A stretch of 32,000 nucleotides of DNA. It comes from Paracoccus suum (GTDB lineage: Bacteria > Pseudomonadota > Alphaproteobacteria > Rhodobacterales > Rhodobacteraceae). Shown piece by piece: positions 6,524-26,206 of this stretch. The stretch covers positions 1,560,001 to 1,592,000 of the forward strand of contig NZ_CP030918.1 of NCBI RefSeq assembly GCF_003324675.1, in the 5' to 3' direction. The notes under the pieces were generated by a model that saw only the letters and a program-made list of their open reading frames with translations, did not search any database and was not told where the DNA came from. Every line of letters starts with the position of its first letter. The stretch's first letter is position 1. Both the position numbers and the translations under genes were made by a program.

Positions 6524-7632
6524 GCGCGCCGATCCGCCTTGGGATGGTCGGCGGGGGCGAAGGCGCGTTCATCGGAGCCGTCCACCGGATCGCCGCGCGC
6601 ATGGACGGTCAGTTCCAACTGATCGCGGGGGCGCTGAGCGGCGATCCGGCCCGCGCCCGCGCCTCGGCCGAGGCGCTAGGGCTGGCGCGCAGCTATGACG
6701 ACTGGGCCGCGATGGCCAAGGCCGAGGCGGCACGCCCCGACGGAATCGAAGCGGTCGCCATCGTCACCCCGAACCACCTGCATGCCGGTCCAGCGGCGGC
6801 GTTCCTCGCCTCCGGCATCCATGTGATCTGCGACAAGCCCCTCGCCGCGACCGAGGAAGGCGCGCGGCAGATCGCCGAGGCCGCCGGCGCCTCGGACGCG
6901 CGGTTCTTTCTGACCCACAACTACGCCGCCTATCCGATGATCCGCGAGGCGCGTGCGATCATGGCCGAGGGCGGGATCGGAGACCTGAGGCTGGTGCAGG
7001 TTGAATATCTGCAGGACTGGCTGGCGAGCGATCCCGGCTCGAAACAATCGGAATGGCGGCTCGACCCGGCGCGCGCCGGCGCCGGGGCGCTGGGCGACAT
7101 CGGCACCCATGCCTGGCAACTCGCCGCCTTTGTCACCGGCCAGTATCCGAGCCAGATCGCGGCCGAGGTCAGCGCCCTGGTGCCGGGACGCGCGGTCGAC
7201 GACGATGCCCGCGTGGCGCTGCGCTATGCCGGTGGCGCGCGGGGCGGAATCTGGGTCAGTCAGGTCGCGACCGGCTGCGAGAACCGCCTGTCCCTGCGCC
7301 TTTACGGCAGCACCGGCGGTCTCGAATGGTCGCACGAGGTGCCGGACCGGCTGATCCGCACCCATCTTGGCCAACCCTCGCAAATCCTGACCCGGGCGCA
7401 GGATCGCAGCGCCAGCAGCCGGACTCCGCCCGGACACCCCGAGGGGTATCTCGAAGCCTTTGCAAATCTTTACAGCGATATAGCTGCGGTTATTCGTGGC
7501 GACTCAACGCCTGCCGCACGCCTGCCGGGACTGGCCGACGGGCTGTCAGGAATGGAATTCATCGCTGCCGCACGCCGCTCCTCCGAGGCGGGCGGCGCCT
7601 GGGTTGCGACCGGGACGGGGACCGCGACATGA
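6520..7632 (+). CDS. Gfo/Idh/MocA-family NAD(P)-dependent oxidoreductase
   Basis: N-terminal Rossmann motif IRLGMVGGGEGAFIGAVHR and the family-typical CDKPLA segment. GGAGG lies upstream of the ATG at 6520. ATGA overlaps occur at both ends (6520-6523 and 7629-7632). Confidence 0.85.
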   Translation: MSAPIRLGMVGGGEGAFIGAVHRIAARMDGQFQLIAGALSGDPARARASAEALGLARSYDDWAAMAKAEAARPDGIEAVAIVTPNHLHAGPAAAFLASGIHVICDKPLAATEEGARQIAEAAGASDARFFLTHNYAAYPMIREARAIMAEGGIGDLRLVQVEYLQDWLASDPGSKQSEWRLDPARAGAGALGDIGTHAWQLAAFVTGQYPSQIAAEVSALVPGRAVDDDARVALRYAGGARGGIWVSQVATGCENRLSLRLYGSTGGLEWSHEVPDRLIRTHLGQPSQILTRAQDRSASSRTPPGHPEGYLEAFANLYSDIAAVIRGDSTPAARLPGLADGLSGMEFIAAARRSSEAGGAWVATGTGTAT

Positions 7633-9131
7633 GCGCCGCCCCGATCCTTGCGCTGACCGGGGTGCGGCGCAGCTTTGGTCCGGTCGAGGTGCTGCACGGC
7701 GTCGATCTGCCCCTGCTGCCGGGCGAGGTTCACGCGCTGATCGGCGAGAATGGTGCGGGCAAGTCCACGGCGATGCGTATCCTCGCCGGTTACCTGCCGC
7801 CCAGCGCGGGCGAGGTGCGGCTGGCGGGCGCGCCGGTCGCCTTCAGCGGCGCGCCGCAGGCCGAGGCGGCCGGGATCGTCATGATCCACCAGGAGTTCAA
7901 CCTCGCCCCCGACCTCAGCATCGCTGCGAACATTTACCTGGGGCGCGAGATCGGGGGCTGGCGGCTGGATCACCAGGCCATGCGCGACGGCGCCGCGCGG
8001 CTGCTGGCCGATCTGGGCACGCCCCTCGATCCCCGCACGCGTATTCAGGACCTGACCGTCCCGCAGCGCCAGATGGTCGAGATCGCAAAGGCCGTCAGCC
8101 GCGCACCCAAGGTGCTGATCATGGACGAGCCCTCGGCCGTGCTGACGCATCGCGAGGTGGGTACGCTGTATGACCTGATCGACCGGCTGCGCGGGCAGGG
8201 GGTGGCGATCCTTTACTGCTCGCACCGCTTGGACGAGGTCGAGCGGCTGGCCGACCGCATCACCGTGCTGCGCGACGGCACCGTCGTGCGCAGCGCGCTG
8301 CGCGGCGAATTGACCCCCGATGCCATGGCCAACGCCATGGTCGGGCGCGAGCTGGAGGACATGTTCCCGCCCCGTCCCGCGGCGCCCACCGCGCCCGAGA
8401 TTGCCTTGTCGGTGCGAGACCTTTCGGTGCCGCCGCTTGTCAGCGGCGCCAGCTTTGATCTGCACCGGGGCGAGATGCTGGGCATTGCCGGGCTGGTGGG
8501 CGCTGGGCGGACCGAACTGGCGGAAGCGCTGGCCGGGCTGCGTCCGGCGCAGGGCGTCATCTCGCGCGGGAACGGCCGGGCTATCCCCCTTGGCGATCCG
8601 GCCGCCGCGACCCGGGCGCGCATCGCCTACCTGACCGAGGACCGCAAGGAAGCAGGATTACTGCTGGGAAAATCCCTGCGGGTGAACCTGACGCTGGCGG
8701 CGTTGCATCGCTTTGGCCGCGTGCTGATCGACCGTCCGGCCGAGGATGCGGCGCTGGCGCGCGCCATCCGCGATTTCGACATTCGCGCTGCGGATCCCAC
8801 TATGACGGCCGGCAACCTGTCCGGCGGCAACCAGCAAAAACTGCTTCTTGCCAAGATGTTGCTCAACGAACCTGAGGTGATCATCGTGGACGAACCGACA
8901 CGCGGCATCGACGTTGGCACCAAGCGGCAGATCTACTCCTTCCTGCGCGGGCTAACCGCCGCCGGGCGCAGCGTGATCGTCATTTCATCCGAACTGCCCG
9001 AGGTGATGGGCCTCGCCGATCGCATCCTGGTCATGCGGCAGGGCCGCATCGCGGGCGAGGTGCCCGGCGCCGGCGCGTCCGAGGCCGCCATCGTCCGGCT
9101 GATGATGGGTGTCGAAGGGGCCGCGGCATGA
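7629..9131 (+). CDS. Sugar ABC transporter ATP-binding protein with duplicated ATPase domains (RbsA/MglA type)
   Basis: Start re-assigned to the ATG at 7629 (MSAAPILALTGVRRSFG). The track ORF from 7053 overlaps the oxidoreductase out of frame. Walker A GENGAGKST; second-domain signature LSGGNQQK; Walker B VIIVDEPTRGIDV. 500 aa. Confidence 0.9.
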   Translation: MSAAPILALTGVRRSFGPVEVLHGVDLPLLPGEVHALIGENGAGKSTAMRILAGYLPPSAGEVRLAGAPVAFSGAPQAEAAGIVMIHQEFNLAPDLSIAANIYLGREIGGWRLDHQAMRDGAARLLADLGTPLDPRTRIQDLTVPQRQMVEIAKAVSRAPKVLIMDEPSAVLTHREVGTLYDLIDRLRGQGVAILYCSHRLDEVERLADRITVLRDGTVVRSALRGELTPDAMANAMVGRELEDMFPPRPAAPTAPEIALSVRDLSVPPLVSGASFDLHRGEMLGIAGLVGAGRTELAEALAGLRPAQGVISRGNGRAIPLGDPAAATRARIAYLTEDRKEAGLLLGKSLRVNLTLAALHRFGRVLIDRPAEDAALARAIRDFDIRAADPTMTAGNLSGGNQQKLLLAKMLLNEPEVIIVDEPTRGIDVGTKRQIYSFLRGLTAAGRSVIVISSELPEVMGLADRILVMRQGRIAGEVPGAGASEAAIVRLMMGVEGAAA

Positions 9132-11180: not shown

Positions 11181-11220
11181 GAACGCCGCCGGAGCCTGTG
11201 GGCTCGGCGGCGTTCGTTTT
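11181..11220. terminator. Second strong hairpin terminator, possibly bidirectional
   Basis: GAACGCCGCC(g)GAGCC-tgtg-GGCTCGGCGGCGTTC: a 15-bp stem with one bulge, followed by GTTTT on the + strand. On the - strand it is followed by a weaker CCTTGTT. It lies between the convergent genes ending at 11116 (+) and 11326 (-). Confidence 0.6.
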
Positions 11221-11325: not shown

Positions 11326-11841
11326 TTACTCCGACTTGCGTGCCTTGCGCTTGGTGGCGGCGCCCTCGACCGGGTTCTCGCGAAGATAGCCGCGGACGAT
11401 GCGGCCGATCTGGTTCACGACCTTGGTCGCGCGCCCGCCCATGGGCTTGGGCCGATCGGCCATCTTTGCGGCGATGCCAGACAGGATCGCGTCCGTCCGC
11501 TCCAGCGCGCTCCTGCCGGCGGGGGTCAGCTGCGCGGTTTCCGGCTTTTCGGCCATCGTCACGAGGCCGAGGTCGGCCAGCGCGGCGAACATGGTGGCCT
11601 CGCGGCGCGGGCCGAGGGTCTGGCCGCCAGCGCCGGCATCGGCGAGCCCACGCAGGGCAGCCAGATGCTCCAGCGTCATGCGGGGCACGACCTGGCGCAG
11701 GCCCTTTTGCAGCGCGTCGGCCAGCGAGCGAGCGCTGATCGCCATGTCCAGCAGCGCGGCACCGTCCAGCGGCGCGGGCGGCGCCTTGGGCTCGGTGCCC
11801 ACAGTGGTTTCGCTCTGGGTCTTGATGTCGAAGTCACTCAT
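11326..11841 (-). CDS. Small (171 aa) degenerate MarR/winged-helix-like protein, a paralogue of the gene at 19328-20008. Function unknown.
   Basis: Start re-assigned to the ATG at 11841 (MSDFDIKTQ...), preceded by GGAGAG. The longer track ORF (to 11973) would overlap the GT4 gene. The segment MTLEHLAALRGLADAG...LADLGLVTMAEKPETAQLTPAGRSALE aligns by eye with LTLSQYAALEAINRAG...LESLGLVAFEGMEAGKRGVEVTATPAGAAHLD of the upstream regulator. Basic C-terminal tail ATKRKARKSE. Confidence 0.5.
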   Translation of the reverse strand: MSDFDIKTQSETTVGTEPKAPPAPLDGAALLDMAISARSLADALQKGLRQVVPRMTLEHLAALRGLADAGAGGQTLGPRREATMFAALADLGLVTMAEKPETAQLTPAGRSALERTDAILSGIAAKMADRPKPMGGRATKVVNQIGRIVRGYLRENPVEGAATKRKARKSE

Positions 11842-11860
11842 CACGGCTCTCCTCTGGAGG

Positions 11861-11885
11861 GTGCAGCCATCGGTCACGGCTGCAC
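11861..11885. repeat. Perfect 8-bp inverted repeat GTGCAGCC-N9-GGCTGCAC, about 20 nt upstream of the ATG at 11841
   Basis: Read directly: arms at 11861-11868 and 11878-11885. A second, weaker inverted repeat CCGCAG-N14-CTGCGG lies at 11895-11920. Both are in the 95-nt gap between the GT4 stop and the small winged-helix-like gene. Confidence 0.5.
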
Positions 11886-11936
11886 GAATAAATCCCGCAG
11901 CAGAGTCTGCCCAACTGCGGAATAAGTCAAGTCCGT

Positions 11937-13184
11937 TTACTCGCGGAGTGTAATCCCGCAAGCGCTCGCCCATTCATTAAGTACCTGATCGAGGCTTGCT
12001 GGCGGTGGGACTGCCGCGGCCAAGGCCGCCCAGCGCGCACCGTCGCCGGCGAGCGTGGCGATCAGACTCGCCAAGGCGCCGGCATCTCCGACCGGGAACT
12101 GCAGCCCCCAGCCAGCGGTCTTTTCCGCCATCCCGCCGATATCCGAGGCGATAACCGGGCGCCGTGCCGCGCGCGCCTCGTCGATCACCACGGGGGCGTT
12201 TTCCCACCAGGTCGAGGGCACGATCACCCAGCCCTGCCGCGCCATGCGTGCGGTCGCCTCTGCCGGGCGGTAGCGCCCGCGCAGGGCCAGCGTCGGCGGG
12301 ACGGAAAATCCCGGCAGGGCGCGGGCAAAGCCGGCGGCATCGACGCCATGCGCCTCGATCGTCACCTGGCCGGCGGCAGGGTCGACGGCCAGCCGGGCCG
12401 CCGCGTTCGCCAACACGTCGAGGCCTTTGGTCGGCGTGGCATTGCCGAAAAACGCAAAGCGGCGCGACAGGGCGTCCGCCTCTGCGCCTTGCGGGATCGG
12501 CGCGGGGTGGGGCGCGCCGTCGGACGGCAAGCCATTCTCGATCACCTGGATGCGGCCGGCCGGCACGCCCCAGTCCTCGTACCGACCGGCCAGAAAGCGG
12601 CTGGGCGCGATCAGCACGTCCATCAGCCCCAGCACCTCGAGCATCCGCGCCCGGCGGATGGCGAAGGACAGAGGGGCATGGGCCGGCAGGCAAGCTGCGC
12701 AATCGAGGGGCGTTGCCGCATCGCAGAGGCCGCCGTCTGCGCGCACCATTTGGCCCCAGAGGGCGCAGATCGGCGCCATCTCGTGCAGGGTCAGAACCAG
12801 GCGTGCCTGCGGCCGCTGCACGCGCAGGCGGCGGATCACCCCGGCGCCGATGTTCCAGACATGGTGAAAATGATAGATCCCGGCGTCAAACCGCAGGATC
12901 GTCGCCAGCAGACGATCCTCGGCAGCGGCGTCGGGCTGCTCCATCAGGAACGGGTCCATCGCGCCGGTGCGCAGGGCCAGATCGCGCGGGTCAAAGGCGG
13001 TCACGTCGCCCATCGTGCCGCCGAGACGCAGGCCATCGTCCCCCGCGACTACTCCGAGGAACCAGGCGTCAACGCCGCGCGCGCGCAGCCGGTCGAACTG
13101 GCGCCAAGCCGCGATCTCGCCGCCGCCAGCGCGCAGGCGGGGGTGGGAATGGGCGATGATGGCGACGCGCGGGGCCGTGGTCAT
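11937..13184 (-). CDS. Glycosyltransferase, family 4 type (GT-B fold, retaining)
   Basis: 415 aa. N-terminal VAIIAHSHPRLRAGGGE. C-terminal E-x7-E motif in WWENAPVVIDEARAARRPVIASDIGGMAEK. The ATG at 13184 overlaps the upstream stop (ATGA, 13181-13184). Confidence 0.85.
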   Translation of the reverse strand: MTTAPRVAIIAHSHPRLRAGGGEIAAWRQFDRLRARGVDAWFLGVVAGDDGLRLGGTMGDVTAFDPRDLALRTGAMDPFLMEQPDAAAEDRLLATILRFDAGIYHFHHVWNIGAGVIRRLRVQRPQARLVLTLHEMAPICALWGQMVRADGGLCDAATPLDCAACLPAHAPLSFAIRRARMLEVLGLMDVLIAPSRFLAGRYEDWGVPAGRIQVIENGLPSDGAPHPAPIPQGAEADALSRRFAFFGNATPTKGLDVLANAAARLAVDPAAGQVTIEAHGVDAAGFARALPGFSVPPTLALRGRYRPAEATARMARQGWVIVPSTWWENAPVVIDEARAARRPVIASDIGGMAEKTAGWGLQFPVGDAGALASLIATLAGDGARWAALAAAVPPPASLDQVLNEWASACGITLRE

Positions 13185-14674
13185 GGCGCGGCCTGCAGGG
13201 CGGCGTCGATGCGGGCCGCCGCAATGCCGGAATAGCGCCCGGGCCAGAACTCCGTCGTCGCGGCCGTGGCAATCTCAAGACGGCCTGCAGCGGCCAGCGA
13301 AGTTGCGGCGATGGCGAGGCTGCCTTCGGCGGAAAGAAGGCCGCGCGGAAGGGCGGCGAGCGCGGGGCCGAGCAGGTCGGAGGACAGGCGCAGCGTGAAG
13401 GGCAGCCCGGCGAGGTCAGCCGCGCGCAACTCGGTCTCCGCTGACAGGGCGCCGAGCGGGTTGTGGACTAGCGCCGCCGCCATGTTCGGTGCGGCTGGCG
13501 GCAGACCAAGCTGGAACAGCGCGGCGGCGCTGCCGGCGGCGACCTCGGTCCCCGGGGGCAGGTGCAGGTCTGGCAGGTCCGCGGCAGCGCAGGGTGGGGT
13601 CAGCGTACCGTCGCCGCGCCCCTCGGCCAAGGCGGCGCGCAAAGCGGCGGCTGCGGCGGCCGGCAGTGCATCCGACAGCGGAACGACCGTGACGGGCGGC
13701 GGAAGGTGCGGTAACAGCCAGCGCGGGATGTCTCGCAACTCGCGCGGTTCCGTGTCGGGGATCAGCAGCAGCGCGCTGCCGGCGCGGGTGTCGGTGACTT
13801 GGGGCAGCGGCGCCAACTCACGGCCAGGGCGCGGCGCGAGTCGGGCCAGCAGCGCCCGCGCGGCATCCCGCGGAAGACCGCGCAGGCCGGCAGCGAGCGA
13901 GGCGGTGACGACCGTCCCTGGCGCGCGCACCAGCGGGGTCGTCATCAGGCCAAAGCCGTGCGCCCCGTCGCGCGGCAGCAGGATCAGTTGCGCCGGGCGA
14001 TTATTTGCAGAGGGCAGGCGAAACACGGCCTGGTACCCGTCCGCGCCAGTGAGGGAGTAGCGCTCGCCATAGCCGGCGAGATCTGCCCGCTCGATGGAGC
14101 CGGTGTTGATTGCGACAGGGACCAGCGAAGTGCCATCGCCGACCAGCCCGACCAAGGGCGCGTCGGCCGCGTCATCGGTCAGCACCCAGCCGAGGACAAA
14201 GCCGTGCCCGCCGGGCGCAACCATCGCCTTGTCTGCGGCGGCGGCGATGCGGGTGTAATGCGCGGGCAGGGGCGCCGCCGTGGCCCGCGTACGGTCCACC
14301 AACCGGGCCACAGCGTCGGCCGGCAGCGGCCCGATCTGGCCCATGGCAATGGCGCGCAGCAGGGCGGCAAAGGTTTCGTCGAGGCAGGCGGAGATCAGTG
14401 CGTTGGCGCCGTCGGCTATTGCCTCGGCGTCCAGCACAGTGCGCGTATCGCCGGCCAGCAGCGCCGCGGGCATGCTACCCGGGGAGGCCACGGCCAGAAT
14501 GCCTAGCGCGGCCTCCGTGCCCAGATCGCCGCGGGCAAAGCGCGCGAGCACCGTCACGGGCTGACGCTTCCCCTCGGCGTCCTCGACTTGCAGGTTCAGA
14601 GGGCCGGCCTCAGCGTCCCAGCCGGCCAACACCAGCCGGCCGGCGTCATCGAGAAAGCCGAAATCGAGGTTCAT
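13181..14674 (-). CDS. Hypothetical protein, 497 aa, no family recognised. Contains two similar GW...R-x-DL modules.
   Basis: Track ORF is 13181-14917. Preferred start is the ATG at 14674 (MNLDFGFLDD...), preceded by GGGGG 8 nt upstream. An alternative TTG at 14743 sits 1 nt after the upstream stop. Same orientation as, and stop-start overlap with, the GT4 gene. No obvious signal peptide or long hydrophobic segment by eye. Confidence 0.7.
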   Translation of the reverse strand: MNLDFGFLDDAGRLVLAGWDAEAGPLNLQVEDAEGKRQPVTVLARFARGDLGTEAALGILAVASPGSMPAALLAGDTRTVLDAEAIADGANALISACLDETFAALLRAIAMGQIGPLPADAVARLVDRTRATAAPLPAHYTRIAAAADKAMVAPGGHGFVLGWVLTDDAADAPLVGLVGDGTSLVPVAINTGSIERADLAGYGERYSLTGADGYQAVFRLPSANNRPAQLILLPRDGAHGFGLMTTPLVRAPGTVVTASLAAGLRGLPRDAARALLARLAPRPGRELAPLPQVTDTRAGSALLLIPDTEPRELRDIPRWLLPHLPPPVTVVPLSDALPAAAAAALRAALAEGRGDGTLTPPCAAADLPDLHLPPGTEVAAGSAAALFQLGLPPAAPNMAAALVHNPLGALSAETELRAADLAGLPFTLRLSSDLLGPALAALPRGLLSAEGSLAIAATSLAAAGRLEIATAATTEFWPGRYSGIAAARIDAALQAAP

Positions 14675-14744
14675 CCGCCCAACCCCCAGGCGAGGTGGGA
14701 GAGTCCCCCATCCGGCTGGTGCCGGCGGCAGGGCGGGGCGCAAG

Positions 14745-15290
14745 TCAGACCGGCACCAGTGCCAGTTGGCGCAGCGTGATCTCGGCCGGCGGGCGGCGCA
14801 GCAGGACCACAATCTTGCGCGGGCGGCTGTCGTCCGGATCAAGCGGGACCTCGGCGACGGAAATCCCCCGGCCATCAAGCCGCCAGCTTTGCGGCGGCTG
14901 GTCCAGCCCGGTGCCATCGGCCTCTATGATACGCACGAATACCTCGGCGGCGATGGCGCGTTCGGCCAGCATCTCAGCCTCGATCACGCAGCGATCGGCA
15001 GTCGAGCCGGTTGGCAGCCAGCCCTCGAGGCTGAGCCAGTCAGGGAAATCGCTGTCGAGCGCGACCGCCGCCTGTTGCGGTCGCAGCGAGCGGACCTGCG
15101 CCCGTGCGCCCTGGGGCACACAGACGGCGAACCGCTCGCCCAAGTCGTGATAGCCGGTGATTTCGACCCCCGTCCCGGGCGCGGTTTCGTCCAGCGCCTC
15201 GGAAAGCAGGTCGATGCGCACATTGGTCAGGGTCGCCAGCAGGCGCGCGGCGGTGCGGTAGGCAGAGAGGGCGTCAGCCGTGAGGGTCAT
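14745..15290 (-). CDS. Hypothetical protein, 181 aa, no family recognised
   Basis: The ATG at 15290 overlaps the stop of the GT fusion gene (ATGA, 15287-15290). The amino-acid composition looks like the neighbouring real genes, not the Arg/Pro-rich shadow ORFs. No hydrophobic segment. Confidence 0.7.
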   Translation of the reverse strand: MTLTADALSAYRTAARLLATLTNVRIDLLSEALDETAPGTGVEITGYHDLGERFAVCVPQGARAQVRSLRPQQAAVALDSDFPDWLSLEGWLPTGSTADRCVIEAEMLAERAIAAEVFVRIIEADGTGLDQPPQSWRLDGRGISVAEVPLDPDDSRPRKIVVLLRRPPAEITLRQLALVPV

Positions 15291-17932
15291 GTGGCGAGGG
15301 CTCCAACGGAAATGGGCTCGGGCGAGGCTTCATCCCGCATATCGGCGATTGCGGCGCACCAGTCCAGCAGGGGTTGGGCCGCTTGCTGCCAGTCGCGGCT
15401 GGTGGCGGCTGCGGCCTCCGACATGGCCGCGAGGCGCGGCCGGTCTTGCGAGAGGTGCAGGATGTGGTCGGTGATCGCGGCGATGCAGTCATCCTCGGGC
15501 ACGACAAAACCGGTGCGGCCGTGGTCGATGGCTTCGCGCACCGCGCCGACATCGGTCGCGATGGGCACGCAGCCGACGCGCTGCGCCTCGAGCAAGACTA
15601 GCGGCAGCCCCTCGTAGCGCGAGGGCAGGATCAGGATATCAGCGCCGGCAAAGGCAGCGGTCAGCGCCTCGGGGCCCTCGACTGCCCCCAACACTTGCGT
15701 GCCGGGGGGCCAGTTCACGGGCTCAGCGCCGCCGACCACGGGCCGTCCGCCGACCGTCAGGCGGAAATTCGCGCCGCCGGCCCCAGCTAGCCGGGCAAAG
15801 ATCGCGGCGACGCGGTCGATGCCTTTCTGCTCGTCCAGCCGCCCGAGGTAGAGGACCGACAGCGGCCGTTCCGCCAGGGGATCGGCTCGCCCCGCGAGCG
15901 CGGCTGCGACATCGGCCGGGGCGAGCGGATAGCCGGGGGCGTTGACCAACGGCATCAGCTTGGCCTGCGGCACGCCGTGCGCGCCGAGCCAGTCGGACAG
16001 CGAGGTCGAGCAGGTCAGGATGCGGTCGTAGGCATTCTCATAGGCGAGGGCCAGCATGGGCGGGCCATAGCTGCGGCCATACTGGCTGACCTCGAGCAGG
16101 TGTTCGTGGCTGGCCATACGGGTGCCGCCCCGGCGCAGCGCCGCTGCGACCTTGTGGACCGCTGCAGCGTGGGCGTTGATGACCAGGTCCATCGGCCGCA
16201 GCAGCCCTTCGAGGTCAGAACGCTCCGTCGGATTGCCCCAACTCGGCTCGGCGGTGCCGAGGTAGGGTGTTCCGTGCCAATCGCCGGCGCTGGGATCGGG
16301 CAGGAAGCTGAGCGAGGCGAAAAGCGCCAGCTCGTCCGGATGCAGATGCGCTGGGCGGCCGCCGATGACGAACAAATGGCAGGCATGGCCAGCCTCATGC
16401 AGCGTGCGGGCCAGTTGCAGGACCACCTTTTCGACGCCGCCTTGGTCAAAAATCGGCACGGTAAAGCCGATCTCCAGGCGCGCGCCGGGCGTGCCGAGGA
16501 ACGGCAGCACCACGCCACCATGAGCCACCTGGCGGGGCGCGGTGATCGCCGCGGCGCGGGAGCGCGCGCCGCCCGGCTCGCGCCAGTCCCAGCGCTCGGC
16601 CAACGTGGCGCGGTAAGGGTGGGCGGCGAGGCCGGCCAGCAGGTGTTGGGCCTCGGTCGCACTGCCATCACCAGCGGGGCCGGTCGCGATGCTCGTCGGC
16701 AAGGTCAGCTGCGCCCGCGCTGCACCGGCGCGCAGGGCCGCGGCATCGGCCGGCACCTCGCCCTGCGCGGCGGCGCGGGCGATAATGGCGGGGCTTAGCG
16801 CGGTGATTGCCGGCGCGTCTGCGGCATCGCCAGCCTCGGTCCAGCCGAAGGTCGCATCAGAGGCAGCGATGCCGACGGTCATCGCTTCGCAGTCCGGATC
16901 GCGGGCAAAGCGGCGCTCGATGTTCCACAGGATGCCGCTCAGCAGACCGGCGTTTGTAAGGGCCGCGCGCAGGGCGTCTGGCATGACGATAACATAGGGC
17001 GGTGCGTGGTGGCGCAGCGGGGCGCCGAGATGGCGGAACAGCGCCGCCTGCAACTCGCCCGCAGGCCATGCGGCCATCAGGGCGGGATCGCTGCCCACCA
17101 CGGCCGGGCCGGTGGCCTGTGCAGTCAGCGCGTAGCGAGGGAAATCCGCTGCCTCGCGCGCCAGCAGGCCGCGCGGCTGGAACAGCCAAGGGTGGCGCTG
17201 GCGCAGATCCGCCCTCAGGCGGCTGTCGAGTTCGTGGCTGGCGGCCAGCATCGAGGCGGGACGCTTGCGATACTGCATCAGCGGCCGGCCAGCCGGCAGG
17301 CCAACCAGCCCGCGGCCGGTCGCGGCGAGGAAAAAGTCCCAATCCTCATAGCCTTGGCGCAGGTCCTCGGCAAAACGCAGGCCCGTGGCAAAGACGCGGG
17401 TGCGGATCAGGCTGCCGGCCTCGGAATGATTGGCGAGGATGTGCATCAAGGCCGAGGGCGCCGCCTCGCCCGCGTAGCTGCCGTCCTGGCCGAAGAAATC
17501 GAACGGTGGATAGAACCAGTCGCCCTCCGGGTGACCCTCCAGCAGCGCCGCGAAGGCGGCGCCAGCGCCAGGCGCAAAGCGGTTGTCGGCATCGAGCAAA
17601 AACAGCGCATCCGGTGGTCCTACGGGGTCCGCCAGTGCAACCTCGATCCCGGCGTTGCGCGCGGCACTGAGGCCGCGGTTGACCTGCGGCACGACCTTCA
17701 GCCGGTCCCGCCCGAGCGCCGCCGCCCAAGAGGCCAGCGCATCGCGCGTCTCGGCAAAACCGCAGCCGTCGTTGACGACGATGATGCGGCTGACCGTCCC
17801 CTCGTCGAGCAGCGCTGCCGCCGACGCAATCGCGTCGTCGACCAGTACCGGGTGACCCATGACGGGGATGACCACGCTGACACGCGGCGCCCCGCCGGCG
17901 GCGGGGCCGCCGCGAGGGTCGGGCGAGCTCAC
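15287..17932 (-). CDS. Bifunctional-looking glycosyltransferase fusion of 881 aa: N-terminal GT2 (GT-A) domain, an unassigned central region of about 230 aa, and a C-terminal GT4 (GT-B) domain
   Basis: Start re-assigned to the GTG at 17932, which overlaps the upstream stop (GTGA, 17929-17932) and has GGAAGG 8 nt upstream. GT2 signs: VSVVIPVMGH, IIVVNDGC, NRGLSAARNAG, DxD in FLLDADNRF, YEDWDFFL. GT4 signs: FDQGGVEKVVLQLARTLHEAGH, and E-x7-E in SRYEGLPLVLLEAQRVGCVPIATDVG. Confidence 0.85.
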   Translation of the reverse strand: MSSPDPRGGPAAGGAPRVSVVIPVMGHPVLVDDAIASAAALLDEGTVSRIIVVNDGCGFAETRDALASWAAALGRDRLKVVPQVNRGLSAARNAGIEVALADPVGPPDALFLLDADNRFAPGAGAAFAALLEGHPEGDWFYPPFDFFGQDGSYAGEAAPSALMHILANHSEAGSLIRTRVFATGLRFAEDLRQGYEDWDFFLAATGRGLVGLPAGRPLMQYRKRPASMLAASHELDSRLRADLRQRHPWLFQPRGLLAREAADFPRYALTAQATGPAVVGSDPALMAAWPAGELQAALFRHLGAPLRHHAPPYVIVMPDALRAALTNAGLLSGILWNIERRFARDPDCEAMTVGIAASDATFGWTEAGDAADAPAITALSPAIIARAAAQGEVPADAAALRAGAARAQLTLPTSIATGPAGDGSATEAQHLLAGLAAHPYRATLAERWDWREPGGARSRAAAITAPRQVAHGGVVLPFLGTPGARLEIGFTVPIFDQGGVEKVVLQLARTLHEAGHACHLFVIGGRPAHLHPDELALFASLSFLPDPSAGDWHGTPYLGTAEPSWGNPTERSDLEGLLRPMDLVINAHAAAVHKVAAALRRGGTRMASHEHLLEVSQYGRSYGPPMLALAYENAYDRILTCSTSLSDWLGAHGVPQAKLMPLVNAPGYPLAPADVAAALAGRADPLAERPLSVLYLGRLDEQKGIDRVAAIFARLAGAGGANFRLTVGGRPVVGGAEPVNWPPGTQVLGAVEGPEALTAAFAGADILILPSRYEGLPLVLLEAQRVGCVPIATDVGAVREAIDHGRTGFVVPEDDCIAAITDHILHLSQDRPRLAAMSEAAAATSRDWQQAAQPLLDWCAAIADMRDEASPEPISVGALAT

Positions 17933-19335
17933 GGCTCGAACCTTCCGACCGCCCGGAAGGCACGGAACAGGGCCCAGGCGTTGTCGTTGCTGGCGCCGCC
18001 GGCGACTGCGGTCGCCAGCGCCACGTCGCACCGCTCGCCGGACATTGCCGCGGCCTTGAGAGGCGCGTGCACCTCGCCCCAGCCGCCCGGCGGCAGCGTT
18101 ACCCAGGGGCCGAGGTGGTCAGCCCAGTTATCCTCGGTGATGTTGCCCGATTGGCTGACGCCCAGCGCAAAGGCCACGGGCGGTCCGTCGCGGCGGGCGG
18201 CGTGGACCACCGCGGACAGGCGCGTCAGGCCGGCCAGCGGCACCCGTTGCAGCAGCGCGCAGACGGGACCTCCAGCCGAGGGGTGGACGAGGATGGCGTC
18301 CTCGCCAGCCCAAAAGGCAGTCGCGACGTAGTCTTTGGCGCCCCGCGGGGTGGCGAGCAGGCTGGGCCGGGGCATATCGGCGGGACGGATGCGCTGGGCG
18401 AATGCATTGCCGGGTCGGCCTGCGCCGCCCTCCGTGATCGTCAGGCCGGCCCCGCCGGTCGCGCGCCAGACGCGCAGGGCGAGGGTCCGGTCGCTGTCCT
18501 CGCCGTCTTGGGTATCGGAGCCGTGCAGGGCAAAATCCGGGTCTGGCACCGCCGGGCCGAGGCCGAGGGAAAGCTTGGGGTCCGCACCAGACAGTTGCAG
18601 GCTGCAATCCTGGCGATCGCCTGCCAGCGGGGCAGGTGCGAGGAAACGCAGCCAGCCGTCGTCGCGGCGCAGGGCGCCGTCATCAAGCCGCAAGGCATGG
18701 ACGGTGCCCTCGCTGTCGAGGATTGCGACCGACAGTTCGCGCGCCTCGGACTCGCCGGCATCTGGCAGCCACAGATCGACAGCGGCGATGCCGGGGCTGT
18801 CGATCGGCAACCGCTGGGTAAGGACCGCGTCCGCCGCGGGCGCATGGGCGATGCGATCGGCAGGGGGCCAGTGCAGCGCCTGCATTTGCCGCGGCCCGCC
18901 GAGGCCCCAGATGAAGGCCTCAAGGGTGTTCAGGCGGCGGCTCACTTCCTCGGTTTCGCGGCGCAGCAGGGCGGCACTGCGGCGCGCGATGCCGGCGTCA
19001 CGCTCGGCCGCGGCCAGTCGCGCGGCGAGGGCGGCCGGCACGGCAGTGATGGCATCCTCCAGCGCCGCGACGGCGAGGTCGGGCAGGCCGGCCGCGTCGG
19101 CCAGATCGCGCGCCTGGGTCAGACTGGCGCGCGGCGCCAGCAGGAGGCGGGCTGGCGCCATGGCCGCGCGCAGGTTCGGATCGTCCGGTGCGGTGTCGAG
19201 GGCGACGGGCAGCAACTCAAAACCCGGCAGCGATGCGGCCAGATCTTCCGGCACGGATCCTGCGACCAGAAGCAGCGGCAGGGGCGACGTGTCCTGTCGG
19301 GCTGGGTCGGGGTCGATGGGGGCGGCTTCACTCAT
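17929..19335 (-). CDS. Hypothetical protein, 468 aa, no family recognised
   Basis: The ATG at 19335 overlaps the upstream regulator's stop by 8 nt (ATGAGTGA). Its own stop overlaps the GTG of the GT fusion. It has an Ala/Leu/Arg-rich helical stretch (AALAARLAAAERDAGIARRSAALLRRETEEVSRRLNTLEAF) followed by a region that looks beta-rich. No signal peptide by eye. Confidence 0.75.
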   Translation of the reverse strand: MSEAAPIDPDPARQDTSPLPLLLVAGSVPEDLAASLPGFELLPVALDTAPDDPNLRAAMAPARLLLAPRASLTQARDLADAAGLPDLAVAALEDAITAVPAALAARLAAAERDAGIARRSAALLRRETEEVSRRLNTLEAFIWGLGGPRQMQALHWPPADRIAHAPAADAVLTQRLPIDSPGIAAVDLWLPDAGESEARELSVAILDSEGTVHALRLDDGALRRDDGWLRFLAPAPLAGDRQDCSLQLSGADPKLSLGLGPAVPDPDFALHGSDTQDGEDSDRTLALRVWRATGGAGLTITEGGAGRPGNAFAQRIRPADMPRPSLLATPRGAKDYVATAFWAGEDAILVHPSAGGPVCALLQRVPLAGLTRLSAVVHAARRDGPPVAFALGVSQSGNITEDNWADHLGPWVTLPPGGWGEVHAPLKAAAMSGERCDVALATAVAGGASNDNAWALFRAFRAVGRFEP

Positions 19336-20008
19336 GGTCGAACTTCGTGCGGATCGGGGCGGGATCTTTCCATGGCATCGCCCCTCCCTCGGGCGCGGGC
19401 GGTGGCTGCGGGGTCACGCGTTTGCGGCGCGGGGCGGGCGATTCGGCCGGCGCATCTGGGCTGTCAGCCCCGGCCGCCGTCTCGGCCTCGTCCTGCAGCG
19501 CGCCGGCGGCATGGGCCAGCAGGCGTAGGCCGCGCCGGGTCGGATGCGGCTCGAAGCGCTCGCCCTTGGCGCCAGGCTCGCCGAGGCGTTCGGCGAGGCG
19601 ATCCAGCAGCGATGCGATGCCGTCCAGATGCGCGGCGCCCGCCGGGGTGGCCGTGACCTCGACCCCGCGCTTGCCGGCCTCCATCCCCTCGAAGGCGACA
19701 AGGCCGAGGCTTTCCAACCGCTTGCAGGTCTGCCACGCCAACTGTCGGGAGATGCGCTGCTGGCTTGCGAGGCGGAACGGGCGCAGCCGGCCGGCGCGAT
19801 TGATCGCCTCGAGCGCGGCATACTGGCTGAGCGTCAGGCTGGGATCGAGTTGCCGCAGCGCGCCGTCGAAGCTGGCGGAGACCAGCGCCACGAAGCCGAC
19901 GATGCGGCGGACATCGGCGGCATCGACATGGCTGCGACCCCGCGCCTCGGGTTGCCCGTCGTCATGTCCGTGCGGGGTACCGGTATGGCTATGATCGGTC
20001 CGCTGCAT
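19328..20008 (-). CDS. MarR-family-like winged-helix transcriptional regulator with a His-rich N-terminus and a Pro/Ala-rich C-terminal tail (226 aa)
   Basis: The track start at 20014 is a TTG; the ATG at 20008 is preferred. The core LTLSQYAALEAINRAGRLRPFRLASQQRISRQLAWQTCKRLESLGLVAFEGMEAGKRGVEVTATPAG matches the MarR wHTH layout. N-terminus QRTDHSHTGTPHGHDDG. Tail ADSPDAPAESPAPRRKRVTPQPPPAPEGG. It is the first gene of the co-oriented cluster. Confidence 0.65.
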   Translation of the reverse strand: MQRTDHSHTGTPHGHDDGQPEARGRSHVDAADVRRIVGFVALVSASFDGALRQLDPSLTLSQYAALEAINRAGRLRPFRLASQQRISRQLAWQTCKRLESLGLVAFEGMEAGKRGVEVTATPAGAAHLDGIASLLDRLAERLGEPGAKGERFEPHPTRRGLRLLAHAAGALQDEAETAAGADSPDAPAESPAPRRKRVTPQPPPAPEGGAMPWKDPAPIRTKFDHE

Positions 20009-20032
20009 GTCCAAACTTCTTCGTGTCCAAAC
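20008..20032 (-). promoter_or_regulatory. 9-bp direct repeat (minus strand GTTTGGACA-N7-GTTTGGACA) abutting the regulator's start codon. Candidate operator.
   Basis: Read directly: TGTCCAAAC at 20008-20016 and at 20024-20032 on the + strand. The last base of the proximal copy is the A of the ATG. A possible -35 TTGACT (20082-20077) and a weak -10 TAAGCC (20060-20055) with a 16-nt spacer lie upstream. Confidence 0.35.
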
Positions 20033-20105
20033 CGCGGGACCCCATTGTTACATGGGCTTAGCCGCAACAACTCCGAAGTCAACCCTGACGGGTAAAGCGG
20101 CGCTC

Positions 20106-24466: not shown

Positions 24467-25903
24467 TCAGCCGCGCGCGTAAGCATCCTCGTAGCGGATG
24501 ATGTCGTCCTCGCCGAGATAGGCGCCGGTCTGCACCTCGATCAGGACCATCGGCACGCGGCCCGGGTTTTCCAGGCGGTGCAGCGCGCCCAAGGGTACAT
24601 AGATCGACTGGTTCTCGGCCATCAGGGTGACCTGCTCGCCGACCGTGACCCGGGCGGTGCCGCTAACGACGATCCAGTGCTCGGCCCGGTGCATGTGGCT
24701 TTGCAGTGACAGGGACGCGCCGGGGTGGACGACGATGCGCTTGACCTGGAACCGCTCGCCCAGCACCAGCGTCTCGAACCAGCCCCACGGGCGGTGGTCG
24801 CGCAGGAAGGCCTCGGCCTGGCGGGCGCCCTTGTCCTTGAGGGCGGCGACCGCGCGCCGCACCTCCTGCGCGCGGGACATGGGCGCGACGAGCACGGCGT
24901 CGCCCGTGGCGACAACCATGGTATCCTCGAGGCCGATGCCCACGACCTCGACCCCGTCGGCCTCGGATCGCAGCAGGACGTTCGTGCAATCGATGGCGGT
25001 CGAGCGGGGGTCGGTCACGCTGCCGCCAGCCGCGCCAGCGGGCAGTTGCTCGCGCCAGACGGCGTCCCAGCCGCCAAGGTCCGACCAATGCCCGGAAAAG
25101 CGAACGACGCTGAGGTTGGGTGCCTTCTCCATGACCGCGTAGTCGATCGAGAGGTCCGGCAGCCGTGACCAGGCCTTCGGGTCAAGGCGCAGGAAGCCCA
25201 GGTCGGTGGTCGCGCCCTTCAGCGCCGCCTCGACCGGCGGCAGAAAATCGGGCGCATGGGCGCGGAACGCATCAATCATGGTGCGCGCGGTGAAAAGGAA
25301 GATCCCCGCGTTCCACAGATAGCGCCCCTCGGCCAACATGGCGGCTGCGGCAGAGGCGTCGGGTTTTTCGACGAACCGGCGCAGCGGTGTCGGCCCGTCG
25401 CCGGGCGGCCCGTCGAGCTCGAGCCAGCCATAGCCGGTCTCGGCCCGGGTCGGGGCGATGCCGAAGGTGACGATCTGTCCGGCGCGCGCGGCCGGAACCC
25501 CGGCGGCGATACTCGCACCGAACGCCTCGGTATCGGGCACGACATGGTCTGAGGGCGCGACCAGCATCAGCGCATCCGGGTCGGTAGCGGCGGCATGGAG
25601 GGCCGCGGCGAGGATCGCGGGCGCGGTGTTGCGGGCCGATGGCTCGATCAGCACCGCCTGCGGGGCGATGTCGATCTCGGCCAGTTGCTCGGTCACGATA
25701 AAGCGGAAATCACCATTGGTGGTGACGATCGGTGCATCGAAGTGGGTACCCGACAGCCGCAGGGCCGAGGCCTGGAACAGCGATTGAGCCCCGAGGAGCG
25801 GCGCGAACTGCTTGGGAAAGGCCTTGCGCGAGACCGGCCACAGGCGTGTGCCGGCGCCGCCGACAAGCAGGACGGGAATGATCGCGGGCGTCGGATCGGA
25901 CAT
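24467..25903 (-). CDS. manC: Bifunctional mannose-1-phosphate guanylyltransferase / mannose-6-phosphate isomerase (type II PMI-GMP)
   Basis: Start re-assigned to the ATG at 25903 (MSDPTPAIIPVLLVGGAGTRLWPVSRKAFPKQF, the nucleotidyltransferase signature). C-terminal cupin HRPWGWFETLVLGERFQVKRIVVHPGASLSLQSHMHRAEHWIVVSG. 478 aa. Confidence 0.9.
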   Translation of the reverse strand: MSDPTPAIIPVLLVGGAGTRLWPVSRKAFPKQFAPLLGAQSLFQASALRLSGTHFDAPIVTTNGDFRFIVTEQLAEIDIAPQAVLIEPSARNTAPAILAAALHAAATDPDALMLVAPSDHVVPDTEAFGASIAAGVPAARAGQIVTFGIAPTRAETGYGWLELDGPPGDGPTPLRRFVEKPDASAAAAMLAEGRYLWNAGIFLFTARTMIDAFRAHAPDFLPPVEAALKGATTDLGFLRLDPKAWSRLPDLSIDYAVMEKAPNLSVVRFSGHWSDLGGWDAVWREQLPAGAAGGSVTDPRSTAIDCTNVLLRSEADGVEVVGIGLEDTMVVATGDAVLVAPMSRAQEVRRAVAALKDKGARQAEAFLRDHRPWGWFETLVLGERFQVKRIVVHPGASLSLQSHMHRAEHWIVVSGTARVTVGEQVTLMAENQSIYVPLGALHRLENPGRVPMVLIEVQTGAYLGEDDIIRYEDAYARG

Positions 25904-26206
25904 GGGCGGCCTCACTTGCTGCGGCTCGGTGATAGCCCGCGGCGCGGCGCGAGGCGAGGGGGTGCGGAGGGCGCGAGGGATTTCGGCGCTGGCGGTCGGT
26001 GGCCGCACCGGGAGGTTTCCCGGCGGTGGCAGATCGCAGGTCGCTGCCAATGCCCGCGCTGCAGCACGGCTGATGGTCGCCCATGCCGGGCCTCACTGAT
26101 CTCCGGGCCGCCGCGCGGTTCGGCTCCGTCGCCGGCTGCGGTGCCCGGCAGGTTCCCGCGGCACCCTCGTTTGTAGGGCGCCGCAGCCGCCGCGCTTTGC
26201 CAGCCG

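What the first reader, a model, noticed from the sequence alone, without database searches (positions are those of the whole stretch)
11326..20032. Tightly coupled seven-gene glycosyltransferase locus with three family-less proteins, bracketed by two MarR-like paralogues, and lacking all export and priming genes
Seen in sequence: seven co-oriented minus-strand genes.

Junctions, read base by base:
- 19328/19335: 8-nt overlap, ATGAGTGA.
- 17929/17932: GTGA.
- 15287/15290: ATGA.
- 13181/13184: ATGA.
- 14674/14745: 70-nt gap.
- 11841/11937: 95-nt gap.

Gene order: MarR-like (226 aa), unknown (468 aa), GT2-X-GT4 fusion (881 aa), unknown (181 aa), unknown (497 aa), GT4 (415 aa), degenerate MarR-like (171 aa).

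Established knowledge: conventional EPS, capsule and O-antigen loci carry a polyprenyl-phosphate priming transferase (WbaP/WecA type), Wzx/Wzy or an ABC exporter, Wza/Wzc, and usually sugar-nucleotide-modifying enzymes. None of these is present here. By eye, none of the three unknown proteins has a signal peptide or a long uncharged hydrophobic stretch.

Inference: three glycosyltransferase active sites plus three soluble partners, made in fixed ratio through translational coupling, suggest a cytoplasmic glycosylation or glycan-assembly machine. The product could be a protein or small-molecule glycoconjugate, or an intracellular or periplasm-destined glycan that uses distant exporters. It does not look like a standard surface-polysaccharide locus. 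I cannot name a described system with this composition.
Basis: partly seen in the sequence, partly recalled or inferred. Interest (0 to 1): 0.75.

Follow-up and report, generated by a model that had tools for sequence, protein, structure and literature searches.

The report
Compact galactoglucan-type exopolysaccharide operon
This Paracoccus suum gene row is a stripped-down relative of the published Sinorhizobium meliloti galactoglucan (EPS II) exopolysaccharide cluster, so it is a polysaccharide operon rather than an unknown kind of machine, although how this pathway primes and exports its polymer is not explained in the papers I could read.

Summary
The seven co-oriented minus-strand genes and all six junctions are exactly as described. 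The interpretation needs correcting.

- **468-aa "unknown":** it is Pfam DUF6212 (E 6e-85), the family of S. meliloti WgaA/ExpA1.
- **881-aa GT2-X-GT4 fusion:** it is colinear with WgaB/ExpA23 (31% over 868 aa, E 2e-101).
- **415-aa GT4:** its best matches are WgeD/WgeG (ExpE4/E7, 35%).

The core therefore maps onto the published galactoglucan (EPS II) cluster. That cluster also has a MarR-type activator and a translationally coupled wgaA-wgaB pair.

The DUF6212 + fusion pair recurs across Alphaproteobacteria. The five-gene core (DUF6212, fusion, 181-aa, 497-aa, GT4) is conserved in Paracoccaceae, often beside pyruvyl- and sulfotransferases.

Models show non-catalytic partners:
- DUF6212 is a coiled coil plus two carbohydrate-binding-module-like jelly rolls.
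- The 497-aa protein is two Ig-like domains plus an α/β domain.
- The 181-aa protein remains unexplained.

There is no priming transferase or exporter in the window. The MarR "bracketing" is weak and not conserved.

Verdict: a new, reduced variant of a known EPS pathway; moderate interest.

The parts
19328..20008 (-). g7: MarR-like winged-helix protein (226 aa), candidate pathway regulator. Its stop overlaps the g6 start by 8 nt.
   Evidence: PF12802 MarR_2 at 29.2 bits (cutoff 27), E 1e-6. There is a 74% orthologue upstream of DUF6212 in the closest relative L007. It is absent from L001/L002 and shows no BLASTP similarity to S. meliloti WggR.
17929..19335 (-). g6: WgaA/ExpA1-like DUF6212 protein (468 aa). 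Small N-terminal α/β domain, a long helix (~aa 92-144), then two β-jelly-roll (CBM-like) domains.
   Evidence: Pfam DUF6212 E 5.7e-85. S. meliloti WgaA hits the same family at E 5e-126. hhalign against WgaA gives probability 96.6%, E 5e-10. AF2 model pLDDT 80.5 but pTM 0.41, so domain arrangement is uncertain. Foldseek top hit is the CBM22 tandem 4xup (E 4e-7), followed by CBM11/61/36.
15287..17932 (-). g5: WgaB/ExpA23-like bifunctional glycosyltransferase (881 aa). GT2 domain (~17153-17878), uncharacterised middle region X (~16463-17149), GT4 domain (~15362-16465).
   Evidence: Pfam GT2 + GT4. 31% identity over 868 colinear residues to S. meliloti WgaB, E 2e-101. The DAD, EDWDF and E-x7-E motifs are invariant in 18 homologues. 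X has no Pfam or PDB match.
14745..15290 (-). g4: 181-aa protein of unknown fold, specific to the Paracoccaceae five-gene core.
   Evidence: No Pfam, NCBIfam, PDB or profile relation. Orthologues occur next to the module in L001, L002, L003, L007 and L008. Genes of the same size (184 aa, no Pfam hit) sit at the same position in L017 and L018.
13181..14674 (-). g3: 497-aa accessory protein. Two Ig-like β-sandwich 'GW...RxDL' modules, a helical linker and a C-terminal α/β domain. Possible counterpart of WgeF/ExpE6.
   Evidence: AF2 model pLDDT 91.8, pTM 0.87. Foldseek hits are Ig-like and pullulanase N-terminal domains. The family has only 27 representatives among 1.84 billion proteins. Links to ExpE6 are weak: hhalign E 0.0095 (probability only 4.3%), and domain-HMM E 8e-4 to the Phyllobacterium ExpE6-like protein.
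11937..13184 (-). g2: GT4 glycosyltransferase (415 aa), WgeD/WgeG (ExpE4/ExpE7)-like, ATGA-coupled to g3.
   Evidence: Pfam Glyco_transf_4 + Glyco_trans_1_4. 35% identity to both S. meliloti GT4s, E 8e-60 and 3e-58. Not similar to WgcA.
11326..11841 (-). g1: 171-aa basic protein, a distant paralogue of g7. Probably a separate transcription unit and not part of the conserved module.
   Evidence: No Pfam hit. 27% identity to g7 over 94 aa, E 0.003. It has its own AGGAGA Shine-Dalgarno sequence, and there are hairpins in the 95-nt gap. No orthologue in L007 or other loci.
11181..11215 (.). Perfect 11-bp inverted repeat between the convergent g1 and the sugar-binding-protein gene: a terminator-like hairpin that would end the transcription unit.
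   Evidence: the repeat finder I5, 100% complementary arms with a 13-nt loop. On the minus strand it is followed by TTCCCTTGTT.

Best explanation
The locus is a compact operon for a galactoglucan (EPS II)-type heteropolysaccharide, built around the WgaA/WgaB module known from Sinorhizobium meliloti.

**Proposed roles (all inferred)**
- g5 is a soluble dual-domain polymerase. Its inverting GT2 domain would add a β-linked sugar and its retaining GT4 domain an α-linked sugar, alternately building a disaccharide-repeat backbone. S. meliloti EPS II has exactly such a β1,3-Glc/α1,3-Gal backbone.
- g6 (WgaA-like) is made in step with g5 through the GTGA overlap. It would act as a non-catalytic, probably oligomeric, glycan-binding partner that holds or measures the growing chain or hands it on.
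- g2 (WgeD/WgeG-like GT4) adds a further sugar, either in initiation or as a branch.
- g3 (tandem Ig-like domains plus an α/β domain) and g4 are lineage-specific scaffold or adaptor proteins.
- g7 is the likely pathway regulator, occupying the position that the MarR-type activator WggR has in S. meliloti.
- Priming and export are done by unlinked genes, most plausibly an ABC + HlyD-type (T1SS-like) system, as found next to the module in other lineages.

**Shown:** homology, domain architecture, intact catalytic motifs, gene coupling and synteny.
**Inferred:** the catalytic roles, the function of the partners, the sugar identity and the export route.
For: **Homology to the EPS II cluster**
- g5 against WgaB: E 2e-101, colinear over 868 aa.
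- g6 and WgaA are both DUF6212, with hhalign probability 96.6%.
- g2 is 35% identical to WgeD and WgeG.
- The annotated S. meliloti pSymB region shows MarR, GT4, DUF6212, fusion and pyruvyl transferase in a row. T1SS HlyD, a Ca-binding protein, a methyltransferase, GT4s and rfbACBD lie around them.

**Literature**
- EPS II is a Glc/Gal disaccharide repeat with α1,3 and β1,3 bonds. ExpA2 and ExpA3 are predicted β-glucosyl- and galactosyltransferases. ExpG is a MarR-type activator, and ExpD1/D2 plus ExpE1 are needed for production (PMC1403797; PMC3418255).
- wgaA-wgaB are translationally coupled and were deleted together to make an EPS II-deficient strain (bioRxiv 10.1101/2020.07.03.187138).

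**Distribution and linkage**
- The DUF6212 + fusion pair is conserved in Paracoccus, Ketogulonicigenium, Halodurantibacterium, Plastorhodobacter, Methylobacterium, Siccirubricoccus, Stellaceae, Phyllobacterium and Sinorhizobium.
- Fusion proteins join GT4, GT2 and the DUF6212 C-terminal part in one chain.
- Polysaccharide pyruvyl transferases or sulfotransferases sit beside the module in many loci.

**Protein features**
- Catalytic motifs are invariant.
- DUF6212 models as a coiled coil plus tandem CBM-like domains.
Against: - Only three of the ~22 EPS II genes have clear homologues here. WgcA (reported as critical for initiation), WgeB, the pyruvyl transferase, the dTDP-sugar genes and the T1SS/ExpE1 have no counterpart in the 32-kb window.
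- g5 is only ~31% identical to WgaB, so sugar specificity may differ.
- g7 shows no sequence similarity to WggR beyond family level.
- The links g3-to-ExpE6 and g4-to-ExpE5 are marginal or absent.
- No biochemical work on WgaA or WgaB was found in the held papers, so the polymerase and partner roles are inference.
- Nothing shows that P. suum makes such a polymer.
Confidence: 0.72

Rival explanations
1. One reading: a cytoplasmic glycosylation machine that decorates a protein or small molecule rather than making a secreted polysaccharide.
For: All seven proteins are predicted soluble. There is no exporter or primer in the window. In some lineages the module lies next to a T1SS with a secreted Ca-binding protein, which could in principle be a glycosylation target.
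Against: In S. meliloti the homologous wga genes are required for an exopolysaccharide of known structure. Polysaccharide pyruvyl transferases and sulfotransferases accompany the module in many genomes. No candidate acceptor protein is conserved with the five-gene core.
Confidence: 0.08
2. The enzymes make a cell-associated glycan that is not a free EPS, for example a lipid-anchored, capsule-like or periplasmic polymer, or an LPS-related chain.
For: The locus has no dedicated exporter or modification enzymes. In Ketogulonicigenium the module lies near KpsF-like (SIS+CBS) and IspD/short-chain-dehydrogenase genes, which are typical of capsule or teichoic-like pathways. A ManC gene lies 4.4 kb away in the window.
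Against: The only studied homologue makes a secreted EPS. None of the loci examined shows a KpsMT or Wzm/Wzt type transporter next to the module.
Confidence: 0.13
3. The locus is a decaying remnant of a larger EPS cluster and is no longer functional.
For: It is the barest version seen, lacking the pyruvyl- and sulfotransferases present in other Paracoccus loci and the T1SS present in rhizobia.
Against: All ORFs are intact with gene-like third-position GC of 0.82-0.83. Catalytic motifs are conserved. Start/stop overlaps are preserved. The same five genes are kept, at 69-85% identity, in the nearest relative.
Confidence: 0.05

Closest known systems
Sinorhizobium meliloti galactoglucan (EPS II) exp/wg cluster on pSymB: wggR-wgcA-wgaAB... 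and wgeA-H, wgdAB
   Same: - DUF6212 protein (WgaA) immediately upstream of, and translationally coupled to, a colinear GT2-X-GT4 protein (WgaB).
- A WgeD/WgeG-type GT4 that follows a large family-less protein with a 4-nt overlap.
- A MarR-type regulator gene upstream.
- No Wzx, Wzy or WbaP-type gene annotated in the ~42-kb S. meliloti stretch examined (PLSDB annotation is incomplete there).
   Different: - The P. suum locus is about 8.7 kb, against roughly 30 kb.
- It has no WgcA, WgeB, methyltransferase, pyruvyl transferase, glycanase, dTDP-sugar genes, T1SS (WgdAB) or Ca-binding WgeA.
- It has g4, and a shorter g3 in place of ExpE5/ExpE6.
- Identity to WgaB is only 31%, and the product is unknown.
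Dual-domain polymerases of ABC-transporter-dependent capsule and O-antigen pathways (for example chondroitin polymerase KfoC, PDB 2z86; WbdA-type mannan polymerases)
   Same: One soluble protein carries two glycosyltransferase domains, which could alternately build a disaccharide repeat in the cytoplasm. The g5 GT2 domain hits chondroitin synthase 2z86 by sequence (E 2.5e-11).
   Different: The domain combination is GT2 + GT4 with a ~230-aa unknown middle region. No KpsMT or Wzm/Wzt transporter and no KpsC/S-type linker enzymes are nearby. The obligatory partner is a DUF6212 protein, which those systems lack (the WbdA comparison rests on my own knowledge).
Wzx/Wzy-dependent EPS loci such as succinoglycan (exo) or colanic acid
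   Same: Several GT2 and GT4 glycosyltransferases. In relatives, pyruvyl transferases modify the polymer.
   Different: No polyprenyl-phosphate priming transferase, flippase, polymerase, PCP or OPX gene is in or near the locus.

Membership tests
WgaA/WgaB-type (galactoglucan/EPS II-like) polysaccharide cluster | DUF6212 (WgaA/ExpA1) protein encoded next to the glycosyltransferase | tested here: met
   g6 hits PF19717 at E 5.7e-85. S. meliloti WgaA hits the same model at E 5e-126. hhalign probability is 96.6%.
WgaA/WgaB-type (galactoglucan/EPS II-like) polysaccharide cluster | Colinear GT2-X-GT4 bifunctional glycosyltransferase (WgaB/ExpA23) with intact catalytic motifs | tested here: met
   BLASTP gives 31% over 868 aa, E 2e-101. 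DAD, EDWDF and E-x7-E are invariant.
WgaA/WgaB-type (galactoglucan/EPS II-like) polysaccharide cluster | Translational coupling of the wgaA-like and wgaB-like genes | tested here: met
   GTGA overlap at 17929-17932. The S. meliloti genes overlap in L014 and are described as coupled.
WgaA/WgaB-type (galactoglucan/EPS II-like) polysaccharide cluster | WgeD/WgeG (ExpE4/E7)-type GT4 | tested here: met
   g2 is 35% identical to both, E 8e-60 and 3e-58.
WgaA/WgaB-type (galactoglucan/EPS II-like) polysaccharide cluster | WggR/ExpG-type MarR activator | tested here: inconclusive
   g7 is a marginal MarR_2 hit in the equivalent upstream position but has no pairwise similarity to WggR. It is conserved only in the nearest relative.
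WgaA/WgaB-type (galactoglucan/EPS II-like) polysaccharide cluster | WgcA (ExpC) initiating GT4, WgeB, pyruvyl transferase, dTDP-sugar genes | tested here: not met
   tblastn against the S. meliloti region finds no counterparts. g2 is not WgcA-like. No such Pfam families occur in the window ORFs scanned.
WgaA/WgaB-type (galactoglucan/EPS II-like) polysaccharide cluster | T1SS WgdA/WgdB with secreted Ca-binding WgeA | tested here: not met
   None in the 32-kb window. The rest of the P. suum genome could not be searched.
WgaA/WgaB-type (galactoglucan/EPS II-like) polysaccharide cluster | Product is a β1,3-Glc/α1,3-Gal disaccharide-repeat polymer | not testable with these tools
   Needs chemistry on P. 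suum polysaccharide.
Wzx/Wzy-dependent surface-polysaccharide locus | Polyprenyl-phosphate priming transferase, Wzx flippase, Wzy polymerase, Wzc/Wza | tested here: not met
   No such Pfam domain in the locus or in the window ORFs scanned. No transmembrane segments in the seven proteins.
ABC-transporter-dependent capsule/O-antigen locus | ABC-2 exporter pair (KpsMT or Wzm/Wzt) linked to the polymerase | tested here: not met
   The only ABC systems in the window are binding-protein-dependent importers for iron-siderophore and sugar.
MarR family transcription factors | Winged helix-turn-helix matching MarR/MarR_2 above the curated threshold | tested here: inconclusive
   g7: MarR_2 at 29.2 bits against a cutoff of 27, and MarR at 16.4 against 24.6. 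g1: no hit, only 27% identity to g7.

The most novel reading that the evidence does not exclude
The WgaA/WgaB module may define a polysaccharide assembly route distinct from the Wzx/Wzy, synthase and classical ABC pathways. It would consist of a soluble GT2-X-GT4 dual polymerase with a coiled-coil, tandem-CBM-like partner, working without a recognisable polyprenyl-phosphate primer and using T1SS-type ABC/HlyD/TolC export. On this reading the Paracoccaceae five-gene set, with the tandem-Ig protein g3 and the orphan g4, is its minimal cytoplasmic core. P. suum, the barest example, would then be a convenient system for working out how EPS II-type polymers are primed, measured and exported.
Probability: 0.25. 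Interest if true: 0.7.

Novelty: new variant of a known kind. Interest (0 to 1): 0.4.

Why it matters
- It links Pfam DUF6212 and a widespread alphaproteobacterial GT2-X-GT4 protein to a genetically defined exopolysaccharide pathway, S. meliloti EPS II.
- It shows that the pair, not the whole 22-gene cluster, is the conserved unit.
- It gives structural hypotheses for the partners: a coiled-coil tandem-CBM protein and a tandem-Ig protein.
- The papers I could read do not explain priming, chain-length control or export of EPS II. A five-gene minimal version in a small genome makes those questions easier to test.
- For annotation, the finding is otherwise ordinary: these 'hypothetical' genes in Paracoccus belong to an EPS operon.

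Tried and rejected
- **Relations among the unknowns.** Profile-profile comparison of g3, g4, g6 and the fusion family found nothing (probability below 1%). The unknowns are not diverged copies of each other.
- **Sequence searches of PDB.** Family profiles of g6, g3 and g4 found nothing significant.
- **Pfam at E ≤ 10.** The g3 sub-domains, g4, the g5 middle region and the g6 N-terminus gave only noise.
- **Is g4 ExpE5?** Rejected. hhalign is not significant. By eye on the consensus, ExpE5 carries a GW module and a C-terminal hydrophobic (probably membrane-spanning) stretch that g4 lacks.
- **Is g7 WggR?** No pairwise similarity.
- **Is g2 WgcA?** No.
- **Is the g3 C-terminal domain a degenerate GT-A?** It looks so by eye, from the motifs and the β/α order. 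No Foldseek, Pfam or hhalign support was found, so this is left as a guess.
- **Database look-ups.** Megablast of the locus against plasmids found no match. The exact-protein look-up of g6 found nothing on record. The genome scan with the DUF6212 alignment returned only two loci because a single peptide pattern was used. Wider context came from homologues of the fusion instead.
- **Literature.** 'DUF6212' returned no papers. Becker et al. 1997 and Bahlawane et al. 2008 are not held. The 'wgaB' and Paracoccus EPS searches gave nothing useful.
- **RNA and signals.** Rfam found nothing. No sigma-70-like promoter was found, and terminator-like sites were fewer than expected by chance (2 found against 3.7 in shuffles).

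Full report

The window is about 70% G+C. It comes from the Paracoccus suum chromosome: the 468-, 497- and 881-aa products are 100% identical to NCBI proteins of that species, with the same lengths.

Seven minus-strand ORFs lie at the stated coordinates. The junction sequences are exactly as described:
- ATGAGTGA at 19328-19335;
- GTGA at 17929-17932;
- ATGA at 15287-15290 and at 13181-13184;
- gaps of 70 nt and 95 nt.

Pfam confirms GT2 + GT4 in the 881-aa protein (g5) and GT4 in the 415-aa protein (g2). No protein has a convincing membrane segment.

The surrounding genes are unrelated. They encode an iron-siderophore uptake system, a LacI-controlled sugar catabolism/import operon, PutA with its Lrp-type regulator, ManC, Edd and Zwf. 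No priming transferase, flippase, polymerase or exporter is present.

Two parts of the description do not hold.
- The 468-aa protein (g6) is not family-less. It is Pfam DUF6212 (E 5.7e-85).
- The 'MarR bracketing' is weak. g7 barely passes MarR_2. g1 has no family hit and is 27% identical to g7 over 94 aa. g1 has its own ribosome-binding site and is separated from g2 by hairpins. It has no orthologue even in the nearest relative.

**2. What is conserved?**

The core g6-g5-g4-g3-g2 recurs in these loci:
- Paracoccus sp. S-4012, also next to putA;
- a P. yeei plasmid;
- Ketogulonicigenium vulgare;
- a Logan contig at 69-85% identity;
- Paracoccus sp. TOH;
- Halodurantibacterium and Plastorhodobacter, where the gene order is rearranged.

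Outside Paracoccaceae only the pair DUF6212 + GT2-X-GT4 persists. It stands alone in Methylobacterium, sits with one GT4 in Siccirubricoccus, and has other partners in Stellaceae and a JGI contig.

Some proteins fuse GT4, GT2 and the C-terminal part of DUF6212 into one chain. That is a classic sign of functional linkage.

Polysaccharide pyruvyl transferases and/or sulfotransferases flank the module in P. yeei, P. versutus, Paracoccus sp. TOH, Plastorhodobacter, Stellaceae and Phyllobacterium. A T1SS-type ABC + HlyD pair or a TolC-like gene lies nearby in Stellaceae, a JGI contig, Phyllobacterium and Sinorhizobium.

**3. Mapping to a published system**

A protein search of plasmids with g5 found full-length matches on pSymB of 69 Sinorhizobium records. 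In an annotated S. meliloti pSymB the match lies in this gene row:
- MarR regulator, GT4, DUF6212 protein, 'glycosyltransferase' (893 aa), pyruvyl transferase, glycoside hydrolase, rfbACBD.

Across a divergent promoter region lies a second row:
- HlyD T1SS adaptor, Ca-binding protein, methyltransferase, GT4, two hypotheticals (234 and 738 aa), GT4, hypothetical.

This is the exp/wg galactoglucan (EPS II) cluster. The held papers describe:
- a MarR-type activator, ExpG/WggR;
- the wga, wgc, wgd and wge operons;
- predicted β-glucosyltransferase ExpA2 and galactosyltransferase ExpA3, now read as one gene, expA23 = wgaB;
- the ExpD1/D2 T1SS with the Ca-binding ExpE1;
- a product made of acetylated Glc and pyruvylated Gal joined by β1,3 and α1,3 bonds (PMC1403797; PMC3418255).

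wgaA (SMb21319) and wgaB (SMb21320) are reported as translationally coupled. They were deleted together to make an EPS II-deficient strain (bioRxiv 10.1101/2020.07.03.187138).

The direct comparisons are as follows.

| P. suum gene | S. meliloti counterpart | Result |
|---|---|---|
| g5 | WgaB | 31% over 868 colinear residues, E 2e-101 |
| g6 family | WgaA | hhalign probability 96.6%; WgaA hits DUF6212 at E 5e-126 |
| g2 | ExpE4 and ExpE7 | 35%, E 8e-60 and 3e-58 |
| g2 | WgcA | not similar |
| g7 | WggR | no pairwise similarity |

**4. The remaining unknowns**

*g6.* The AlphaFold model has mean pLDDT 80.5, but pTM is only 0.41, so the arrangement of the domains is uncertain. It shows a small α/β domain, a ~50-residue helix and two β-jelly-rolls. 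Foldseek matches the jelly-rolls to tandem CBM22 (E 4e-7) and to other carbohydrate-binding modules. TM-scores are low (at most about 0.24 over the query), so this supports the fold class only.

*g3.* The family is tiny, with 27 representatives among 1.84 billion proteins. The model is very confident (pLDDT 91.8, pTM 0.87). It shows two Ig-like sandwiches, each carrying a 'GW...RxDL' motif, then a helical linker and a C-terminal α/β domain. Foldseek finds only Ig-like and pullulanase N-terminal domains.

The same GW motif is visible by eye in S. meliloti ExpE5 and ExpE6. g3 also occupies the ExpE6-like position, just before the ExpE7-like GT4 and coupled to it by a 4-nt overlap. The statistical support is marginal: hhalign E 0.0095 with probability only 4.3%, and domain-HMM E 8e-4 to the Phyllobacterium ExpE6-like protein. 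I rate 'g3 is a shortened WgeF analogue' at about even odds.

*g4 and the middle of g5.* Neither has a detectable relative in Pfam, NCBIfam or PDB sequences.

**5. How it most likely works**

*Shown:*
- g5 has intact GT2 (DAD, EDWDF) and GT4 (E-x7-E) motifs that are invariant across 18 homologues.
- g6, g5 and g4, and separately g3 and g2, are linked by start/stop overlaps.

*From established knowledge:* GT2 enzymes invert and GT4 enzymes retain anomeric configuration. One protein with both domains can therefore lay down alternating β and α linkages. That is what the EPS II backbone contains.

*Inferred:*
- g5 is the backbone polymerase.
- g6 is a non-catalytic glycan-binding and oligomerising partner.
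- g2 adds an initiating or branching sugar.
- g3 and g4 are scaffolds.
- g7 regulates the operon.
- Priming and export are encoded elsewhere, plausibly by an ABC/HlyD-type system.

I put 0.72 on the general reading that this is an EPS II-type polysaccharide operon. I put much less, about 0.2-0.3, on the product being a true galactoglucan, given 31% identity and the missing modification and sugar-nucleotide genes.

**6. Rivals**

- A cytoplasmic protein or small-molecule glycosylation machine (0.08). The S. meliloti genetics and the polysaccharide-modifying neighbours argue against it.
- A cell-associated rather than released glycan (0.13). This cannot be excluded.
- A decaying remnant (0.05). 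Intact ORFs, gene-like codon bias, conserved motifs and conservation in relatives argue against it.

**7. Novelty and verdict**

The locus is a reduced variant of a known, genetically defined but biochemically unresolved EPS pathway. It is not a new class of system.

What is new or useful:
- the recognition that DUF6212 + GT2-X-GT4 is the conserved unit across Alphaproteobacteria;
- the fold assignments for WgaA-like and g3 proteins;
- a Paracoccaceae-specific five-gene core with two orphan proteins;
- the absence of linked priming and export genes, which in the held papers also goes unexplained for S. meliloti EPS II.

Interest 0.4.

Noticed in passing
window 24467-26050 (-): A ManC-type bifunctional mannose-1-phosphate guanylyltransferase/mannose-6-phosphate isomerase lies only 4.4 kb from the glycosyltransferase operon, beyond putA and its regulator. 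It could supply GDP-mannose to the pathway or be unrelated.
   Followed up: no
window 7053-9131 (+): The longest ORF for the sugar ABC ATPase carries a ~190-aa Arg/Pro-rich N-terminal extension that looks spurious. The real start is probably near MSAAPIL (~7629), directly after the Gfo/Idh/MocA-like gene at 6520-7632.
   Followed up: partly
window 11181-11215: A perfect 11-bp inverted repeat with a 13-nt loop lies between the convergent g1 and the sugar-binding-protein gene. It looks like a shared bidirectional terminator. Two further hairpins (11861-11885 and 11892-11923) sit in the g2-g1 gap.
   Followed up: partly
L014 6829-7533 and 4604-6820 (S. meliloti ExpE5/ExpE6); P0149: The 'GW...RxDL' Ig-like module that occurs twice in g3 is also visible in ExpE5 (which by eye ends in a hydrophobic, probably membrane-spanning, stretch) and in ExpE6. 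A 981-aa protein with a Peptidase_M10 hit matches it in five stretches. It may be an undescribed domain family associated with polysaccharide machinery.
   Followed up: partly
L015 (P. versutus pTAV3), L017 (Paracoccus sp. TOH), L018 (Plastorhodobacter), L012: In several relatives the DUF6212 + fusion module is surrounded by multiple sulfotransferases. P. versutus also has Glf (UDP-galactopyranose mutase). This suggests sulfated, possibly galactofuranose-containing, polysaccharide variants of the same pathway.
   Followed up: no
P0107, P0112 and the Azospirillum plasmid hits H65-H68: Proteins of about 650 aa match g5 over ~73-75% of its length (about a third for the Azospirillum hits) yet show only a GT2 domain in Pfam. 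GT2 plus the middle region therefore seems able to exist without a recognisable GT4 domain.
   Followed up: no
window 20009-20105: The putA-g7 intergenic region contains an imperfect palindrome, CCCATGTAACAATGGG, about 40 nt upstream of the g7 start. It is a candidate operator for the MarR-like proteins. The repeat finder did not report it at the settings used.
   Followed up: partly
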